Shown: in pieces, positions 2,694 to 57,568 of the stretch | How the letters are laid out: each line of letters opens with the position of its first letter | How positions within the stretch are numbered: the stretch's first letter is position 1 | Assembly (NCBI RefSeq): GCF_029227855.1 | Contig: NZ_CP074356.1 | DNA length: 64,000 bases | Direction: 5' to 3' (one strand) | Source of the DNA: Escherichia coli | Lineage (GTDB): Bacteria; Pseudomonadota; Gammaproteobacteria; Enterobacterales; Enterobacteriaceae | Translations under genes and position numbers: made by a program | The notes under the pieces: model-generated | What the model was told of the DNA's origin: nothing | Seen by the model: the letters and a program-made list of their open reading frames with translations, nothing else | Database searches by the model: none

Positions 2694-3769
2694 GCGCCCT
2701 CCCCGGCGGCAATCGCCAACGCCCGCTGCCAGCCTTGTAGATAGTTAGGGCTAAAGAAGGCAATGGTGTTTTTATCCACCGACGCCAACTGGCGCTGCGC
2801 TTCACGCACAATATCCTCGTTGAGATCGTCGGTAGTAAACAGCACCGGCAAATGCTGTTCCGTCATATCCTGCCAGAACGGATTTTCCCGGTTAAGCACA
2901 CAAGGAATGCCCGCCTGAATCAGTAAGCAAAGCGTACCAATGCCCTGCTGGCGGGCAAAAATAAAGTAACCAAGATCGCACTGACGAAGTAGCGCCAGAT
3001 AGGCGTCAAATTCCAGTTTTTCGCTCAAAATTTGCAGATTTTCTTCGCTGAATAACTCCAGCCCCGCCTGACGAACTTCCTCAATGTACGCTTCGTTATT
3101 AGGCGGATATCCCATCGGCACCACCACTTTTACCGTATCGCCAAATTGCTGATGAACGGCGCACAAGGCAGCAATATGGTCATTGCTGCGGTCACCGGAG
3201 TTCCCCACCAGAATGGTCATTTTCCCTTCACGTTGCCGATCGTTCGCCATCGTATTGAGAGAAGGGTCCATCCGCGTCGGGAAGTACAGCAGTTCGCCCC
3301 GCACCTTTGGATGCGTTTTGGCAAAAAAGCTCAAATCGCCGCGGGTGGCAAATACACAGCCGACTCGCTTTTGCGCCAGGCGACGTAGTGGGTAAAAAAG
3401 CTTATATCTCAAGCCACTGGAAAGCTCATACAGGTCTGCCCCCCAGATATGCCAGAAAAACTGGCTGGGCTTAATGCCACCACTCAGCAGAGCCAGCCAC
3501 AGTGTGGGATTGAACTGACCGTGGAAGAAAAAACGCTGCTGACGGTTAGCTTTTGCTTTCGCGATGACCGCTTCCGCCAGCGATTTTTTCCCAGGGAAAA
3601 ATTGCACAGAAAGCGCCGGACAGCTATCACTTAAGCCGTCGTCCTTGCCAACAACCATAAACTCGCGCGCGTGCTCGCTCGTCGCAGCCAGCGCGTCATT
3701 GAAAAACCGCAAAACGGTTCGGTTATGGTGAGGGATATCCGATCCCAGTACGTGAATCAGTACAGTCAT
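2690..3769 (-). CDS. wecF: TDP-Fuc4NAc:lipid II 4-alpha-fucosyltransferase
   Basis: 359-aa ORF recognised as WecF/RffT; overlaps both neighbours by 4 nt. Confidence 0.92.
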
Positions 3770-5016
3770 GCCCGCCTACGCCAGAGTAAAAACACGCCAC
3801 AACAAAGAGAAAAATAGACGATATAAGTTGCCATATATGCCTGCGCCGCGCCCAGTGCACCATGCGCAGGGATTAGCCAGTGGGCAAATACCATCAATAA
3901 AGTGAACTGGCTGATTTCCGCCAGAATATAAAACCGCAATGACGCTTTGGCGATCACCAGATAACCAAAGACATAAGCGCCCACTTTTAACACATCACCC
4001 ACTAACTGCCAGGCAAAGAGATCGCGCATAGCGGTAAATTTATTCGACAACAGCAGCCAGATAGCAAAATCACGCAGCAGCCAGACGGTAAAACTCGCCG
4101 CCGCCACTGCCGGTAAGACGAATTTCAGCGATTTAACCACTTCCCGGGTGATATCGCGCTTTTCCGTTAGCCGCGACAACGTGGGCAGCAAATATACGCT
4201 GAACGATGCCGTAATAAATTGCAGGTAGGCATCGGAAATACTGCTCACCCCTTGCCAGATCCCCACTTCATCCCAGCTATACTGCGCCGCGAGCAGTTTA
4301 CGCATCATGATGTAAGCAACAGGCAAGGTCACCGACGTAATCAACGCCATGAGCGTAAATTTGCTCAACTGCCCTGCCAGACCGTTATCCCAGCTGGGTT
4401 TCAAATAGCTTAACGGGATGACACCACGTTTGATCAACATGATGGCGGCAGGAATTACCACCAGCGCGGGAATCAGCGCCAGACCCAGCAACGCCCCTTC
4501 ATAACCGCCCAAACGGTAACTGACGTAGTACGCGAGAACGCCAATCAAGCTGCCGACAATCAGCGATAACGCATTACCTGCGGCATCGCGAAAGCCTTTC
4601 ATCAGCGCCAGTAACAGGTTGCCCCAGGCGATCCCCATTTGCACCAGCGCCACTAAACGCACCAGCCCCTGATAGTCGGTATTACCAAACAATCCCTGGC
4701 TGATTGGCGCAGCTGCCAGCACAAAAACCAGCGCCATCAGCGTAGAGAAACCAAGTACCATCGCTGATGAAGTGCCGACCACGCGGCGCAGCTGTTGCGG
4801 ATTATCATGGTACTGGGCAACGTATTTGGTTACACCGTTAAAGATGCCAGCTCCGGCAAGCACGCCGAGCACGGTAATCAACTGGCGGAAATTTGCCGCC
4901 AGCCCAAGCCCCGCCGGACCAAATGACACAGCCAGCAACTTACCGACCAGTAACCCGGCACCAATCTTGACCAGTGTACTGGCCGCCGTCCACAAGGACG
5001 CTTTTGCCAACGACAT
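3766..5016 (-). CDS. wzxE: Lipid III flippase (ECA)
   Basis: 416-aa polytopic membrane ORF recognised as WzxE. Confidence 0.92.
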
Positions 5017-15203: not shown

Positions 15204-15533
15204 TTACGCCAGGTTAGCGTCGAGGAACTCTTTCAACTGACCTTTAGACAGTGCACCCACTTTGGTTGCCGCCACTTCACCGTTTTTGAACAGCAGCAGA
15301 GTCGGGATACCACGGATGCCATATTTCGGCGCAGTGCCAGGGTTTTGATCGATGTTCAGTTTTGCAACGGTCAGTTTGCCCTGATATTCGTCAGCGATTT
15401 CATCCAGAATCGGGGCGATCATTTTGCACGGACCGCACCACTCTGCCCAGAAATCGACGAGGATCGCCCCGTCCGCTTTGAGTACATCCGTGTCAAAACT
15501 GTCGTCAGTCAGGTGAATAATTTTATCGCTCAT
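15204..15533 (-). CDS. trxA: Thioredoxin 1
   Basis: Translation from ATG 15531-15533: [41 protein letters not shown], with the WCGPC active-site motif (109 aa). Confidence 0.97.
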
Positions 15534-15663
15534 ATATAACTCCACAGGAATAAGCCTGGCGTGTTGGTTTCGTTGTTGGTGTAACATTAACCAACTAAAG
15601 GTTGACTTTATTTCACCGGATACGCTTTCGTAAAGCAATAGTAAGCTGATATTCTACCACACT

Positions 15664-16929
15664 ATGAGCAAAACACATTTAACAGAACAGAAGTTTTCCG
15701 ACTTCGCCCTGCATCCGAAGGTTGTAGAAGCCCTTGAAAAAAAAGGGTTTCATAACTGTACGCCCATTCAGGCACTGGCCCTTCCGCTGACGCTGGCGGG
15801 TCGTGACGTAGCCGGGCAGGCGCAAACCGGTACCGGGAAAACGATGGCGTTTCTTACGTCAACGTTTCATTATCTTCTCTCTCATCCTGCGATTGCCGAT
15901 CGCAAGGTGAATCAACCACGTGCCTTAATTATGGCACCGACGCGTGAACTTGCCGTGCAGATCCATGCCGACGCAGAACCGCTGGCGGAAGCTACCGGCC
16001 TGAAGCTGGGTCTGGCTTACGGTGGTGATGGCTACGACAAACAGCTGAAAGTGCTGGAAAGCGGCGTTGACATTCTGATTGGCACTACGGGGCGTTTAAT
16101 TGACTACGCCAAGCAGAACCACATTAACCTCGGTGCCATTCAGGTGGTGGTACTGGACGAAGCCGATCGCATGTACGATCTGGGCTTTATTAAAGATATC
16201 CGCTGGCTGTTCCGCCGTATGCCGCCTGCAAACCAGCGCCTCAACATGCTGTTCTCCGCCACGCTTTCGTACCGGGTACGTGAACTGGCGTTCGAGCAGA
16301 TGAACAATGCCGAATATATTGAAGTGGAACCGGAACAGAAAACGGGCCACCGTATTAAAGAAGAGCTTTTCTACCCTTCTAACGAAGAAAAAATGCGTTT
16401 GCTGCAAACGCTGATCGAAGAAGAGTGGCCAGACAGAGCGATTATTTTCGCCAATACCAAACACCGTTGTGAAGAGATCTGGGGCCACCTGGCGGCAGAT
16501 GGTCATCGTGTCGGTTTGTTGACAGGCGATGTCGCGCAGAAAAAACGTCTGCGTATTCTTGATGAATTTACCCGTGGCGATCTGGATATTCTGGTTGCCA
16601 CCGACGTTGCCGCGCGTGGTTTGCATATTCCGGCAGTGACGCACGTCTTTAACTACGATTTACCCGATGACTGTGAAGATTACGTTCACCGTATTGGTCG
16701 TACAGGTCGCGCAGGCGCAAGCGGTCACTCTATTAGCCTGGCGTGTGAAGAGTATGCATTGAATTTGCCTGCTATTGAGACCTATATTGGTCACTCAATT
16801 CCGGTAAGCAAATACAATCCGGACGCATTGATGACCGATCTGCCAAAACCGCTGCGCCTCACGCGCCCACGTACAGGCAATGGTCCGCGTCGTACTGGCG
16901 CTCCGCGTAATCGTCGTCGTTCAGGTTAA
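15664..16929 (+). CDS. rhlB: ATP-dependent RNA helicase RhlB (DEAD-box)
   Basis: 421-aa ORF with DEAD-box motifs ([12 protein letters not shown] as [19 protein letters not shown]) and a C-terminal Arg-rich tail. Confidence 0.96.
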
Positions 16930-17062
16930 ATAAAATGTCATACTCAAAATCATTCAAACTGTATCAAGATGGCAAGAGAATGAGTCCCGATGAGCGTACT
17001 GTAGTAAGTGATTCGGGTGAAAGAATGCAGCCAACACAGAGACAGATTGAAGGATGAAGAGT

Positions 17063-18547
17063 ATGGGTTCCACCTCGTCGCTGTATGCAGCCATTGATCT
17101 CGGTTCGAATAGTTTTCATATGCTGGTTGTGCGCGAGGTGGCTGGAAGCATCCAGACGCTGACGCGAATTAAACGCAAAGTGCGTCTGGCTGCTGGCCTG
17201 AATAGCGAAAATGCCCTCTCTAATGAAGCAATGGAGCGCGGTTGGCAATGTCTGCGCCTGTTTGCTGAACGTCTGCAAGATATTCCTCCCTCGCAAATTC
17301 GCGTTGTCGCTACGGCGACATTACGACTTGCCGTCAATGCGGGTGATTTTATTGCCAAAGCGCAGGAAATCCTCGGTTGTCCGGTACAGGTGATCAGCGG
17401 TGAAGAGGAAGCACGTCTGATTTATCAGGGCGTTGCTCACACCACTGGTGGTGCCGATCAGCGCCTGGTGGTGGATATAGGCGGAGCCAGTACTGAACTG
17501 GTAACCGGCACGGGTGCACAAACCACCTCGTTGTTCAGCCTGTCGATGGGCTGCGTCACCTGGCTGGAACGCTATTTTGCCGATCGTAATCTGGGGCAGG
17601 AAAATTTTGATGCTGCAGAAAAAGCGGCACGCGAAGTGTTACGTCCGGTTGCCGATGAATTACGGTATCACGGCTGGAAAGTGTGCGTTGGCGCTTCCGG
17701 CACCGTGCAGGCGTTACAGGAAATCATGATGGCACAGGGAATGGATGAACGCATTACCCTGGAAAAGTTGCAGCAACTGAAACAGCGCGCCATTCATTGC
17801 GGTCGGCTGGAAGAGCTGGAGATTGACGGGCTGACGCTGGAACGTGCGTTAGTGTTCCCGAGTGGTCTGGCGATCCTGATCGCCATTTTTACCGAACTGA
17901 ATATTCAGTGTATGACCCTGGCGGGCGGTGCGCTGCGTGAAGGCCTGGTCTACGGCATGTTGCATCTGGCCGTCGAGCAGGATATTCGCAGCCGTACGCT
18001 GCGTAATATTCAGCGCCGCTTTATGATCGATATTGATCAGGCGCAGCGCGTAGCCAAAGTTGCAGCTAACTTCTTCGATCAGGTGGAAAATGAATGGCAT
18101 CTTGAAGCAATAAGCCGCGATTTGCTCATCAGCGCTTGTCAGCTTCATGAAATCGGCCTGAGCGTTGACTTCAAACAAGCGCCGCAACACGCTGCTTATC
18201 TGGTGCGTAACCTGGATCTTCCCGGTTTTACCCCCGCACAGAAGAAACTGCTGGCGACGCTACTGCTCAACCAGACTAACCCGGTCGATCTCTCATCGCT
18301 GCATCAGCAAAATGCCGTACCACCGCGCGTCGCAGAACAACTCTGCCGTTTACTACGCCTGGCTATCATTTTTGCCAGCCGTCGCCGTGACGATCTCGTG
18401 CCAGAGATGACATTACAGGCTAACCATGAACTGTTGACCTTGACGCTTCCGCAAGGTTGGCTAACCCAACATCCGCTGGGTAAAGAGATTATTGCTCAGG
18501 AAAGCCAGTGGCAGAGCTATGTCCACTGGCCGCTGGAAGTGCATTAA
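17063..18547 (+). CDS. gppA: Guanosine pentaphosphate phosphohydrolase
   Basis: ORF recognised as GppA (Ppx/GppA family); I chose the ATG at 17063 ([20 protein letters not shown], 494 aa) over the ATG at 17054. Confidence 0.92.
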
Positions 18548-18556
18548 TGAGTAAGT

Positions 18557-18588
18557 GCCGGATGCGATGCTGACGCATCTTTTCCGGC
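18557..18588. repeat. REP-like palindromic element / bidirectional terminator between convergent gppA and rep
   Basis: Nested inverted repeats gccgg...ccggc and gatgcg...cgcatc in tgccggatgcgatgctgacgcatcttttccggcc; the tgccggatgcg motif is REP-like. Confidence 0.5.
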
Positions 18589-18593
18589 CTTGA

Positions 18594-20615
18594 TTATTTC
18601 CCTCGTTTTGCCGCCATCATCGCTTTCAAATTCGCCAGATGGCTTTGCCCTTTCTGCATCCGTTCTTCGGCGCTGACCACTTTGCGCTCCTGTTCCCAAA
18701 TCAGATCATCCTGCGGCAGCTCCAGCAAAAAGCGGCTCGGCTCCGGGCGCACCAGTTCGCCATACTGACGGCGTTCTTTACACAGCGTAAAGGTCAATTC
18801 CTTCTGGGCGCGGGTAATGCCGACATAGGCCAGCCGCCGCTCCTCATCGATATTATCTTCATCGATGCTGCTCTGGTGCGGCAAAAACCCTTCTTCCATA
18901 CCGACCATGTAGACATAAGGAAACTCCAGCCCTTTCGACGCGTGGAGAGTCATCAGTTGCACCTGATCCAGCTCTTCTTCACTCTCACCACGCTCCATCA
19001 TGTCGCGCAAAGTAAAGCGCGTCACCACCTGGGTGAGCGTCATCGGCTCATCCAGTTCGCTGCCTTCCAGCATCTCCGTCATCCAGCTAAACAGTTGGTT
19101 GACGTTCTTCATGCGCATTTCGGCGGCTTTCGGGCTGGGCGATGTTTCGTACAGCCAGGATTCATAATCCATGCCGTGGATCAGATCGCGCACCGCAGCA
19201 ATCGGCTCCCGCTCCGCCAGGCGCTGGATTTCTGCCAACCAGTGAGTGAAGCGGGTCAATGCTTCATAACCACGTCCGCTAAGGGTCTGACTCAGGCCCA
19301 TATCAAAGCTGGCGGTAAACATGCTTTTATTGCGCGTCATCGCCCACTCACCCAGCTTTTTCAGCGTCGCCGGGCCAATCTCTCGCTTCGGCGTGTTAAC
19401 GATACGCAGAAATGCGCTGTCATCGTCCGGGTTAGTCAGCACACGCAGATAAGCCAGCAAATCCTTGATTTCAGGACGAGAGAAAAACGACGTACCACCA
19501 GAAATTTTGTACGGGATGCGGTTTTGCATCAGGAATTTTTCAAATACCCGCGACTGATGGTTGCCGCGATAAAGAATGGCGTAATCTTTGTACTGCGTTT
19601 TATTGACGAAGTGATGCGCAATCAGTTCACCGGTGACGCGCTCGGCTTCATGTTCCTCGTTATTCGCGCTTAAAACTTTTAGCTCTGTGCCATAACCCAG
19701 TTCGGAGAACAGACGCTTTTCAAAGACGTGCGGATTATTGGCGATCAGGATGTTCGCCGCTTTCAAAATACGTCCGGAAGAGCGGTAGTTTTGCTCAAGC
19801 TTAATCACCTTCAGCGCCGGAAAATCCTGGCTCAACAGCACCAGGTTTTGCGGACGTGCGCCGCGCCAGGAGTAGATCGACTGGTCGTCATCGCCAACTA
19901 CGGTAAAGCGCGCGCGGCTGCCCACCAGCAGTTTCACCAGTTCATACTGGCTGGTGTTGGTGTCCTGATACTCATCCACCAGCAGGTAGCGAATTTTGTT
20001 CTGCCAGCGCTCGCGGACTTCTTCATTGCGTTGCAGCAGCAACGTCGGCAATAAAATCAGATCATCGAAGTCGAGAACGTTACAGGCTTTCAGGTGTGCA
20101 TCATACAGCCCATAACAATGGGCAAAAATACGATCCCGCTCGCCCTTTGCCTCTGCCGCCGCCTGCGCCGGAGTTTTGAGATCGTTCTTCCAGTTGGAGA
20201 TGGTCGAAATTAGCTGTTGCAGGAGAACTTTGTCATCTTCAATCAGCCCCTCAGTCAGCTCTTTGAGCAACGCCAGCTGATCGGTATCGTCAAACAATGA
20301 GAAGTTCGCTTTCATCCCAAGCGCCGCATACTCACGCTTGATGATATCCAGCCCCAGCGTGTGGAAGGTGGAGATCATCAGCCCTCGCGCCTCTTTGCGA
20401 CCCAGCGTCTGCCCGACTCGCTCTTTCATCTCGCGCGCCGCCTTATTGGTAAAGGTCACCGCCGCGATATGTCGTGCCTGATAACCGCAACCGCGGATCA
20501 GATGGGCGATTTTATTGGTGATAACACGAGTTTTACCGGAACCCGCGCCCGCCAGCACCAGGCAGGGGCCGGTAACGAATTCGACAGCTTGTTGTTGGCC
20601 GGGGTTTAGACGCAT
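18594..20615 (-). CDS. rep: ATP-dependent DNA helicase Rep (SF1)
   Basis: Translation from ATG 20613-20615: [39 protein letters not shown] (673 aa), recognised as Rep. Confidence 0.96.
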
Positions 20616-20831
20616 AGGTGTATTGCTCAATCTTCGAACGGGGGGAGGATTGTAGCAGAATCGCATTTGAATGTGACCGAGTGAAAACCGCTAACCGGAT
20701 GGCTGCGGATGTTTAAATCAGAGAGGGAAGGCCGAAACCGGAGTTCATCATGAATCCATTAGACTTAGAAAATATCGGGTCGTAACGTTGTGTTATTACT
20801 TTTTCAGAGTTTACTAAGGAGAGGTTTACTC

Positions 20832-23276: not shown

Positions 23277-23349
23277 GGTGATTCCTCGTGATGTTGTGCT
23301 TCTTATTGTTCGGTTCGCGTTTGCGAGATTGAATTCACTATATGACAGG

Positions 23350-23410
23350 AAATTTATTGCGGAAATTGATATATTCACAACGTCACATTGCAATTTTTGC
23401 AACGTCAACA
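23350..23410. promoter_or_regulatory. ilvY-ilvC divergent promoter/operator region (IlvY binding sites)
   Basis: 150-bp divergent intergenic region; dyad ttgcaa-ttttt-gcaa at about 23388-23403, consistent with a LysR-type T-N11-A site. Confidence 0.5.
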
Positions 23411-23425
23411 TCGAGGGCTGCGCCA

Positions 23426-37899: not shown

Positions 37900-39441
<1,542 letters not shown>

Positions 39442-57505: not shown

Positions 57506-57568
57506 CGCATTAAAAATGCCTGGTAAGCACCCGCTTACCAGGCAACGCATCAAGAACAGGTAATCACC

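What the first reader, a model, noticed from the sequence alone, without database searches (positions are those of the whole stretch)
18557..18588. REP-like nested palindrome at the gppA/rep convergent junction
The 46-bp spacer between the convergent gppA and rep stops is almost entirely occupied by a nested inverted repeat with the tgccggatgcg signature of REP elements. It probably serves as a bidirectional 3' end structure and possibly a gyrase or IHF target.
Basis: partly seen in the sequence, partly recalled or inferred. Interest (0 to 1): 0.15.

Follow-up and report, generated by a model that had tools for sequence, protein, structure and literature searches.

The report
Known REP hairpin between gppA and rep
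The palindrome between the converging gppA and rep genes is REP286, an already catalogued copy of E. coli's common REP repeat; its RNA hairpin marks where the gppA message ends after Rho-dependent termination further downstream, so the finding is real but ordinary.

Summary
The 46-bp spacer (18548-18593) between gppA (+) and rep (-) holds a two-tier hairpin at 18552-18592. It folds at about -21 kcal/mol on either strand (z -4.6 and -5.7).

It is a genuine REP, annotated in E. coli K-12 as REP286. A covariance model built from 13 other REP units ranks it first in the 64-kb window (30.6 bits, E about 7e-7). It is 32/37 identical to a unit of REP263. In six E. coli genomes the REP-targeting IS1397 sits exactly in its loop. 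It is a single unit, and its GTAG tetranucleotide has decayed to CAAG.

Published Term-seq puts the gpp mRNA 3' end at window 18594, 2 nt past the hairpin. The same study calls a strong Rho-dependent termination region about 200 nt further on. So the hairpin most likely blocks exonucleases and fixes the 3' end. It is not an efficient intrinsic terminator.

For the rep direction there is only an in-vitro Rho-binding peak, and the junction is not on a published list of bidirectional terminators. Nothing supports a gyrase or IHF role.

Novelty: already known. Interest is low. One side observation: a REP occupies this junction, in the same orientation, in about 29 of 80 Enterobacteriaceae species.

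The parts
17054..18547 (+). gppA (gpp) coding sequence; stop codon TAA at 18545-18547
   Evidence: ORF list; RefSeq annotation of identical sequence
18594..20666 (-). rep (DNA helicase Rep) coding sequence; stop codon at 18594-18596
   Evidence: ORF list; RefSeq annotation
18548..18593 (.). 46-bp convergent intergenic spacer
18556..18592 (-). REP286, a single palindromic unit. The strand that would carry the 5' GTAG is the rep-sense (-) strand. It belongs to the long, Z2-length class with a G-C (y-like) outer stem.
   Evidence: Covariance model hit of 30.6 bits, E 7e-7. Listed as REP286 at MG1655 3962701-3962736. 32/37 identical to REP263 unit 2 and 30/37 to the Z2 unit of REP26.
18557..18562 (.). 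Lower stem, 5' arm GCCGGA; pairs with 18583-18588
   Evidence: MFE structure on both strands; inverted repeat I1
18583..18588 (.). Lower stem, 3' arm TCCGGC
18563..18565 (.). Internal loop, 5' side (TGC), opposite 18580-18582 (TTT). On the - strand this is AAA facing GCA. It matches the conserved AA/GC mismatch bulge of E. coli REPs, plus one extra A:A mismatch caused by a T-to-A change.
   Evidence: Fold; alignment to other REPs; bulge described in PMC3479197
18566..18570 (.). Upper stem, 5' arm GATGC; pairs with 18575-18579 (GCATC)
   Evidence: Population variants G18575A and C18579T weaken this stem.
18575..18579 (.). Upper stem, 3' arm GCATC
18571..18574 (.). Apical loop TGAC. This is the IS1397 insertion point and its target-site duplication in strain MS 16-3 and five other genomes.
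   Evidence: L011 junction sequences; six genomes carry the exact junction
18589..18592 (-). Position of the REP 5' tetranucleotide, here CAAG instead of GTAG (2 of 4 bases). On the + strand these bases (CTTG) pair with 18552-18555 (TAAG) and extend the hairpin.
   Evidence: GTAG is required for TnpA-REP binding and cleavage (PMC8266576; PMC3333891).
18594..18594 (+). Steady-state 3' end of the gpp mRNA (...CCGGCCUUGAU-3')
   Evidence: Adams et al. 2021 Term-seq, LB OD 0.4: MG1655 3962698 (-), classed 'primary' for gpp. Coordinate mapping verified by alignment.
18593..18794 (+). Read-through region antisense to rep. It is C-rich and G-poor (C/G 1.6 overall, 1.9 in the first 100 nt). It ends at a called Rho termination region at MG1655 3962498 (-), about window 18794.
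   Evidence: Composition script; Adams et al. 2021 Supplementary file 2: Rho score 10.94, p 2.7e-39
18475..18580 (-). In-vitro Rho-binding peak on rep-sense RNA (MG1655 3962712-3962817, +). It overlaps the REP and runs into antisense gppA.
   Evidence: Harris et al. 2026 Table 15, which reproduces the Delaleau et al. 2022 screen ('NusG minus'); no bicyclomycin-sensitive transcript is flagged. C/G is 1.62.

Best explanation
This is REP286, one isolated copy of E. coli's repetitive extragenic palindrome family, sitting in the 46-bp gap between the converging gppA and rep genes. As DNA it is a decayed and probably immobile repeat. Its GTAG guide tetranucleotide has mutated to CAAG, and published work on other substrates shows that such changes abolish recognition by the REP transposase.

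As RNA it folds into a hairpin of about -21 kcal/mol at the end of either transcript. In the gppA direction, RNA polymerase reads through the hairpin into antisense rep. Rho loads on the C-rich, G-poor RNA just downstream and terminates about 200 nt later. 3'-to-5' exonucleases then trim the RNA back until the hairpin stops them. This leaves a defined 3' end 2 nt past the stem.

Shown by published data: the 3' end position and the Rho-dependent termination region. Inferred: the trimming step and any stabilising effect on gpp mRNA. The same role in the rep direction is plausible but unproven.
For: Identity as a REP:
- Annotated as REP286.
- Best hit in the window for a model built from 13 other REP units.
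- 32/37 identical to REP263 unit 2, with the AA/GC bulge retained.
- IS1397, which inserts specifically into REPs (PMC1525189), sits exactly in its loop in six genomes.

Hairpin: -21.3 and -21.6 kcal/mol, z -4.6 and -5.7.

3' end: Term-seq 3' end at window 18594, 2 nt after the extended stem.

Rho:
- Termination region at about window 18794. Read coverage upstream/downstream is 202/29 without bicyclomycin and 235/369 with it, which means near-complete read-through of the REP when Rho is inhibited.
- C/G is 1.6-1.9 downstream of the hairpin.

General model: Rho-dependent transcripts end just after stable stem-loops that lack U-tracts and that protect against PNPase and RNase II. REPs account for 24% of these stem-loops (Dar & Sorek 2018).

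Convergent REPs are associated with higher expression of both flanking genes (Harris et al. 2026).

A hairpin, either a REP or a classic terminator, occupies this junction in most Enterobacteriaceae sampled.
Against: - The 3' end was called only in LB OD 0.4, not in the other two conditions of that study.
- No experiment has removed REP286, so trimming and stabilisation are inferred from genome-wide studies.
- Harris et al. found no general difference in mRNA half-life for REP-terminated genes (legend of Fig. 4G-H).
- The tail after the hairpin in the gpp direction (CUUGAUUAUUU) has 5 U in 8 at offsets +1 and +2, and the 3' end lies 6 nt after the core stem. A minor intrinsic-termination component therefore cannot be excluded.
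- In the rep direction no in-vivo 3' end is reported, and the junction is absent from the Ju et al. bidirectional list.
- Common E. coli alleles weaken the upper stem without compensation, which argues against strong selection on the exact structure.
Confidence: 0.75

Rival explanations
1. The hairpin is itself a bidirectional intrinsic (Rho-independent) terminator. It would release RNA polymerase arriving from either gene.
For: - Stable GC-rich hairpin on both strands.
- The 3' end lies 6 nt after the core stem, and the tail in the gpp direction is moderately U-rich, with 5 of 8 at offsets +1 and +2.
- 78 REPs do lie within published bidirectional terminators.
- In Kosakonia and Franconibacter the same junction carries a classic A-run, hairpin and T-run terminator.
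Against: - There is no uninterrupted U-tract on either strand. The rep-direction tail ACUUACUCAU has 3-4 U in 8.
- The simple terminator scan finds nothing here.
- With Rho inhibited, coverage downstream of the region equals or exceeds coverage upstream (235 vs 369), so the REP lets nearly all polymerases through.
- rep/gpp is not among the 306 overlapping bidirectional terminators of Ju et al. 2019.
- Most REPs lack the poly-U needed for intrinsic termination (Harris et al. 2026).
Confidence: 0.1
2. The hairpin sits so close to both stop codons that it impedes terminating ribosomes. This would lower GppA and Rep protein output through stalling, mRNA cleavage and ribosome rescue. This is the mechanism of Liang, Rudd and Deutscher 2015. 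It could act in addition to the 3'-end role.
For: - The core stem starts 9 nt after the gppA stop and 5 nt after the rep stop. With the extended stem the distances are 4 and 1 nt.
Against: - Neither gene was tested.
- The original paper and its gene list could not be read here.
- The hairpin has a 3x3 internal loop, and a weaker upper stem in many strains. A ribosome may unwind it.
- Harris et al. report that convergent genes flanking REPs are on average more highly expressed at the RNA level, not less.
Confidence: 0.3
3. The element acts at the DNA level as a binding or cleavage site for DNA gyrase or IHF, and so influences local supercoiling between two converging transcription units.
For: REPs as a class are reported to bind gyrase, IHF and DNA polymerase I (PMC1525189; PMC3333891). 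Convergent transcription does build up positive supercoils, which is general knowledge.
Against: - Per PMC3333891, the IHF site lies in the L linker of BIME-1 (a z1 plus a y unit). That paper's reference list cites in-vivo gyrase cleavage for BIME-2 repeats.
- Here there is one unit in a 46-bp spacer, with no linker and no second unit.
- No match to WATCAANNNNTTR lies in the spacer; the nearest is at 19458.
- Harris et al. found no chromosome-organising role for their model REP (abstract).
Confidence: 0.04
4. The element is simply a dead selfish repeat that is tolerated here. Its effect on the RNA 3' end is a physical by-product that is not selected.
For: - GTAG is lost, so the REP transposase should no longer act on it.
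- Frequent alleles break upper-stem pairs without compensation.
- IS1397 disrupts it in six genomes that otherwise look normal.
- One Salmonella subspecies and several other genera have almost no spacer and no hairpin.
Against: - The element is retained in 5417 of 5426 E. coli genomes.
- A REP in the same orientation, or else a terminator hairpin, occupies this junction in most of the 80 species examined. This suggests that some hairpin is favoured here.
- A measurable 3' end forms at it.
Confidence: 0.25

Closest known systems
E. coli REP / palindromic unit family (y, z1 and z2 classes); specifically the annotated element REP286 of K-12 MG1655
   Same: - Same locus and identical sequence to REP286.
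- 37-nt imperfect palindrome in an extragenic position.
- Conserved GGCCGGA...AAG...CGCATCCGGCA framework and AA/GC mismatch bulge.
- 32/37 identity to REP263 unit 2 and 30/37 to a canonical Z2 unit.
- Top hit of a family model.
- Used as a target by IS1397.
   Different: - The 5' GTAG is CAAG.
- An extra A:A mismatch widens the bulge to 3x3.
- The outer stem is y-like (G-C) while the length and upper stem are z2-like, so it does not fit any one of the three textbook classes cleanly.
- It is one of the minority of single REPs (84 of 584 per PMC3333891), not part of a BIME.
Protective 3' stem-loops of Rho-dependent transcripts (Peters et al. 2012; Dar & Sorek 2018 model)
   Same: - Stable hairpin without a proper U-tract.
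- mRNA 3' end a few nt downstream of the hairpin.
- C-over-G enrichment and a bicyclomycin-sensitive termination region further downstream.
   Different: The dependence of this particular 3' end on PNPase or RNase II has not been measured. The end was called in one of three growth conditions only.
REP325 (yjdM-yjdN), the REP characterised as a dual partial Rho-dependent terminator and mRNA stabiliser (Harris et al. 2026 preprint)
   Same: A REP located in a 3'UTR and associated with Rho. Both are proposed to limit read-through and to protect the upstream message.
   Different: REP325 is a multi-hairpin array between tandem genes, and its Rho dependence needs the full array. REP286 is a single hairpin between convergent genes, and the mapped Rho termination lies about 200 nt beyond it.
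REP at the ilvY/ilvA junction in the same window (24333-24363)
   Same: A single REP in a convergent spacer of about 50 bp. It is the second-best hit of the same model, at 28.6 bits.
   Different: That copy is the short z1 type. It keeps GTAG and is followed directly by a T-run, so it looks like a REP that doubles as an intrinsic terminator. REP286 has no such T-run.

Membership tests
E. coli REP (palindromic unit) | Imperfect palindrome of 20-40 nt able to form a stem-loop | tested here: met
   Hairpin of 32-41 nt, -21 kcal/mol on both strands, z -4.6 and -5.7
E. coli REP (palindromic unit) | Sequence and structure match to the family (y/z1/z2 consensus) | tested here: met
   A covariance model built from 13 other units, with the candidate excluded, gives 30.6 bits, E 7e-7, the best hit in 64 kb. 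32/37 identical to REP263 unit 2.
E. coli REP (palindromic unit) | Two conserved mismatches (AA opposite GC) forming a bulge in the stem | tested here: met
   The AA/GC bulge is present at model columns 12-13 / 28-29. An additional A:A mismatch makes it 3x3. The feature is defined in PMC3479197 and PMC8266576.
E. coli REP (palindromic unit) | Conserved GTAG tetranucleotide 5' of the hairpin foot | tested here: not met
   CAAG at 18589-18592 on the - strand, 2 of 4 bases. The literature says the E. coli enzyme tolerates no GTAG mutation. It is still filed as a REP because the curated MG1655 annotation includes it, and other annotated units also deviate (ATAG, GTTG, ACGG, TTAT). It should be regarded as a decayed, non-mobilisable copy.
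E. coli REP (palindromic unit) | Extragenic location, typically at gene 3' ends | tested here: met
   It lies wholly within the 46-bp convergent spacer. About 60% of E. coli REPs lie between convergent genes.
E. coli REP (palindromic unit) | Many related copies dispersed in the same genome | tested here: met
   Related units were recovered at eight other MG1655 loci and at one more site in this window. Whole-genome counts of 584-697 come from the literature and were not recounted here.
E. coli REP (palindromic unit) | Substrate of TnpA-REP (RAYT) binding and cleavage | not testable with these tools
   Predicted negative because GTAG is lost. This needs a gel shift or cleavage assay.
E. coli REP (palindromic unit) | Recognised as a target by REP-specific insertion sequences | tested here: met
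   IS1397 is inserted in the apical loop with a TGAC duplication in MS 16-3 and five other genomes. IS1397 specificity for REPs: PMC1525189.
BIME (BIME-1 with IHF site; BIME-2 gyrase target) | [quoted passage not shown] | tested here: not met
   There is one model hit in the spacer, and 46 bp cannot hold a second unit plus a linker.
BIME (BIME-1 with IHF site; BIME-2 gyrase target) | IHF consensus in the linker | tested here: not met
   No WATCAANNNNTTR lies within 18548-18593. The window has three matches, which is no more than chance.
Intrinsic (Rho-independent) terminator | GC-rich hairpin immediately followed by a U-tract of 7-8 nt | tested here: inconclusive
   The hairpin criterion is met. 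The U-tract is weak and interrupted in the gpp direction (CUUGAUUAUUU, 5 of 8 at offsets +1 and +2) and absent in the rep direction. The scan tool reports no site, but its loop limit of 8 nt or fewer cannot accommodate the internal loop.
Intrinsic (Rho-independent) terminator | Termination independent of Rho | tested here: not met
   Published bicyclomycin data show strong Rho-dependent termination about 200 nt downstream, and full read-through of the REP when Rho is inhibited (Rho score 10.9).

The most novel reading that the evidence does not exclude
The gppA/rep junction carries a REP on the rep-sense strand in about 29 of 80 Enterobacteriaceae species representatives. The stems differ by genus: CCGGAT in Escherichia and Citrobacter, CCGGGT in Enterobacter and Lelliottia, CCCGGT in other genera. 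In at least one genome the junction copy is almost identical to another REP in the same locus.

The most novel reading not excluded is that an ancient, orthologous REP is repeatedly overwritten in place by its host's current REP type. This could happen by gene conversion or by transposase-templated replacement. The alternative is that it simply descends with mutation or is re-inserted independently. Under the novel reading, this junction would be a convenient natural marker for measuring concerted evolution of REPs.
Probability: 0.2. Interest if true: 0.35.

Novelty: already known. Interest (0 to 1): 0.08.

Why it matters
It matters little beyond correct annotation. The element is a catalogued REP. 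Its 3' end and the downstream Rho termination region are already in published supplementary tables.

What this analysis adds is a coherent reading of those scattered data for one locus. The REP is a 3'-end-fixing hairpin upstream of a Rho terminator, and it does not itself terminate transcription efficiently. The analysis also corrects the gyrase/IHF suggestion.

It shows too that the copy has lost its mobilisation signal but is still hit by IS1397 in natural strains. Because rhlB and gppA lie on the same strand just upstream, the message that ends at this REP may also carry rhlB. From my own knowledge, RhlB is a degradosome helicase implicated in degrading REP-stabilised RNA. That is a curiosity, not a finding.

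Tried and rejected
- **MG1655 annotation.** I looked for a REP feature in the local copy of NC_000913.3. None is listed, but the copy lacks REP features even at known REPs, so the absence means nothing.
- **Rfam.** The gathering-threshold scan of the whole window found no family at the junction. Nothing reached threshold, so this neither supports nor contradicts the REP assignment.
- **Loose REP 12-mer with two mismatches.** It gave 26 hits against 23.9 expected, so it is not informative. The bare 10-mer GCCGGATGCG is also weak evidence on its own, since 20 of 100 shuffles contain one.
- **Simple terminator scan.** No site at the junction. I treated this with caution because the tool cannot model the internal loop.
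- **IHF consensus search.** Nothing in the spacer.
- **Papers not held.** Liang, Rudd and Deutscher 2015 could not be retrieved by PubMed id or PMC id, so its rule is cited second-hand from PMC12306157. The supplementary tables of Dar & Sorek 2018 are not held either, so their 3' end and Rho-dependence score for gpp could not be checked.
- **Covariation across genera.** I considered treating the cross-genus stem differences as covariation proof of a selected RNA structure and rejected it. Replacement by each genus's own palindromic REP type would give the same pattern.
- **Covariation within E. coli.** The variants found are not compensatory.

Full report
**What is in the sequence**

The window is Escherichia coli chromosome. 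A 601-bp stretch around the finding matches 5424 of 5426 complete E. coli genomes, many at 100% identity. gppA occupies 17054-18547 on the + strand and rep occupies 18594-20666 on the - strand (names from RefSeq annotation).

The reported palindrome GCCGGATGCGATGCTGACGCATCTTTTCCGGC is at 18557-18588. As RNA, both strands fold into the same two-tier hairpin:
- a 6-bp lower stem (18557-18562 with 18583-18588)
- a 3x3 internal loop
- a 5-bp upper stem (18566-18570 with 18575-18579)
- a TGAC loop (18571-18574)
- four further pairs (18552-18555 with 18589-18592)

The energies are -21.3 and -21.6 kcal/mol, with z-scores of -4.6 and -5.7. None of 200 shuffles folds as well. The composite pattern occurs once in the window and never in 100 shuffles.

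**Is it a REP?**

Yes, and a catalogued one. The junction is base-for-base identical to K-12 MG1655 in reverse orientation. The mapping is window x = 3981292 minus the MG1655 coordinate. The supplementary data of Harris et al. (bioRxiv 2026) list REP286, 'convergent, rep/gpp', at MG1655 3962701-3962736, which is window 18556-18591. The local copy of the MG1655 record shows no REP feature here, but it shows none at other known REPs either, so that absence is uninformative.

For an independent test I fetched eight other annotated REP loci and extracted 12 palindromic units. I added the y-type REP crystallised with its transposase (PMC3479197), aligned all 13 and built a covariance model without the candidate. 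Scanning all 64 kb with filters off, the best hit is 18556-18592 on the - strand (30.6 bits, E about 7e-7). The second hit is another REP at 24333-24363.

On its - strand the candidate reads CAAGGCCGGAAAAGATGCGTCAGCATCGCATCCGGCA. It is 32/37 identical, without gaps, to the second unit of REP263, and 30/37 to a canonical Z2 unit of REP26. Two of its differences from Z2 are paired changes that keep the stems intact. The AA/GC mismatch bulge typical of E. coli REPs is present.

One defining feature fails: the 5' GTAG is CAAG. GTAG is required for binding and cleavage by the E. coli REP transposase, which 'tolerates no GTAG mutation' (PMC8266576; PMC3333891). This copy should therefore be immobile.

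A biological confirmation came unexpectedly. In strain MS 16-3 the junction is split by IS1397. The element sits exactly in the apical loop, flanked by a TGAC duplication. Six complete genomes share that exact junction. IS1397 is experimentally known to insert specifically into E. coli REPs (PMC1525189).

**What it does**

Adams et al. 2021 (eLife, PMC7815308) list a Term-seq 3' end at MG1655 3962698 on the minus strand, classed as the primary 3' end of gpp. I checked the table layout against the thrL row: 50 nt upstream, the end itself, then 10 nt downstream. The end is therefore window 18594, and the RNA finishes ...CCGGCCUUGAU. That is 2 nt beyond the extended stem and 6 nt beyond the core stem. 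It was called in LB at OD 0.4 only.

The same study's bicyclomycin experiment calls a Rho termination region at 3962498 (minus strand, antisense to rep), about window 18794. The Rho score is 10.9 and p is 2.7e-39. Coverage upstream/downstream is 202/29 without the drug and 235/369 with it. When Rho is inhibited, essentially all polymerases pass the REP.

The RNA just downstream of the hairpin is C-rich and G-poor, with C/G 1.9 over the first 100 nt, as expected for a Rho loading site. This is the arrangement described genome-wide by Dar and Sorek 2018: Rho-dependent transcripts end just after stable stem-loops lacking U-tracts, which protect against PNPase and RNase II, with the rut site downstream.

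My best explanation is that the REP hairpin fixes and protects the gpp 3' end after Rho-dependent termination about 200 nt further on. It does not terminate transcription efficiently itself. The trimming and protection steps are inferred for this locus.

A small intrinsic component cannot be ruled out. The tail CUUGAUUAUUU has 5 U in 8 at offsets +1 and +2.

**The rep direction**

Evidence here is thin. [quoted passage not shown] 2022, as tabulated by Harris et al.) has a peak on rep-sense RNA at MG1655 3962712-3962817, which is window 18475-18580. It overlaps the REP, and no bicyclomycin-sensitive transcript is flagged there.

Adams et al. list no rep 3' end at the junction. The table of 306 overlapping bidirectional terminators from Ju et al. 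2019, which is stored in full, does not include rep/gpp. 'Bidirectional' is therefore plausible but unproven.

**Other proposed roles**

The hairpin begins 9 nt after the gppA stop and 5 nt after the rep stop. That is within the 'fewer than 16 nt' rule under which REPs were reported to stall terminating ribosomes and lower translation (Liang et al. 2015, cited through PMC12306157). This is a reasonable additional role, but it is untested for these genes.

The gyrase/IHF idea is not supported. Per Ton-Hoang et al. 2012, the IHF site lies in the L linker of BIME-1, and that paper's reference list cites gyrase cleavage for BIME-2 repeats. This element is a single unit, and no IHF consensus lies in the spacer.

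**Variation and comparison**

Within E. coli the junction is almost universal, present in 5417 of 5426 genomes. Common alleles carry G18575A, and some also carry C18579T. Both weaken upper-stem pairs without compensation.

Across 80 Enterobacteriaceae species representatives, most have a hairpin in the gppA-rep spacer. The E. coli-trained REP model hits the spacer in about 29 of them at E 0.01 or better, always on the rep-sense strand. Outside Escherichia these copies usually keep GTAG and have genus-typical stems.

Kosakonia and Franconibacter instead have classic A-run, hairpin and T-run terminators. A few lineages have almost no spacer. Whether the REPs are one ancient insertion that tracks each genus's REP type or repeated insertions is unresolved. 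This is the only mildly novel thread.

**Verdict**

- REP: yes.
- 3'-end structure: shown for gpp, unproven for rep.
- Mechanism: Rho-dependent termination plus an exonuclease block, not intrinsic termination.
- Gyrase or IHF target: not supported.

The element and the key data are already published, so novelty is 'already known' and interest is low.

Noticed in passing
window 24333-24363 (+), spacer 24320-24370 between ORFs 23342-24319 (+) and 24371-25915 (-): A second REP: GTAGGCCTGATAAGCGAAGCGCTATCAGGCA. It is the short z1 type with an intact GTAG, it is followed directly by TTTTT, and it lies in the convergent ilvY/ilvA spacer. The model score is 28.6 bits. It looks like a REP that doubles as an intrinsic terminator and may be the 'REPt285' mentioned by Harris et al.
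   Followed up: partly
L011 (E. coli MS 16-3, NZ_CP146667.1) 3586-5013; equivalent to window 18571-18574: IS1397 (IS3 family; its transposase is annotated as frameshifted) is inserted exactly in the REP286 loop with a TGAC duplication. Six complete genomes share the junction. More than 1400 records have IS1397 ends flanked by a similar REP half-site elsewhere.
   Followed up: yes
L016-L095, gppA-rep spacers (typically locus positions about 3990-4050): A REP occupies this junction on the rep-sense strand in about 29 of 80 Enterobacteriaceae species, with genus-specific stems. Kosakonia and Franconibacter have classic bidirectional intrinsic terminators instead. Salmonella enterica subsp. arizonae has a 15-bp spacer with no hairpin. 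Several genera have spacers of 0-8 bp.
   Followed up: partly
L018 (record titled E. coli SCPM-O-B-8794) 1856-1887: This lineage has a 5-bp deletion (CTTTT) relative to the window, which turns the REP into a perfect 10-bp palindrome, GCCGGATGCG/CGCATCCGGC. Its spacer is 116 bp rather than 46 bp.
   Followed up: no
window 18575 and 18579: Population alleles: G18575A (UTI89 and the other two variant genomes aligned) breaks the C18570-G18575 pair. C18579T (strain WP3-W18-ESBL-07) turns G18566-C18579 into a wobble on one strand and a mismatch on the other. Neither change is compensated.
   Followed up: partly
window about 15917 (+), inside rhlB (15664-16929): Adams et al. list a strong Term-seq 3' end internal to rhlB (MG1655 3965375, minus strand, 255 nt from the start codon) in both LB conditions. 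They do not class it as Rho-dependent, and its intrinsic-terminator score is 2.9.
   Followed up: no
L035, L040, L041 (about 1 kb) and L089 (about 2.2 kb) between gppA and rep: Some Citrobacter, Superficieibacter and Kluyvera genomes carry 1-2 kb of extra DNA between gppA and rep. In L089 a REP still sits at the rep end of the insert.
   Followed up: no
window 57514-57544 (+): A weak REP-model hit (12.9 bits, E 0.17): AAATGCCTGGTAA...ACCAGGCA. It could be a degenerate REP or chance.
   Followed up: no
window 15504-15603 (-), 30708-31000 (-), 34219-39441 (-): Rfam hits elsewhere in the window: the TrxA 5'UTR thermometer, a 'Rev39 5'UTR' match, and a complete rRNA operon with tRNAs and StyR-44.
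   Followed up: no
NC_000913.3 as held in the E. coli genome collection: The local copy of the MG1655 record carries no REP repeat_region features, even at well-known REPs. The absence of a REP feature in this tool's output therefore cannot be used as evidence.
   Followed up: yes
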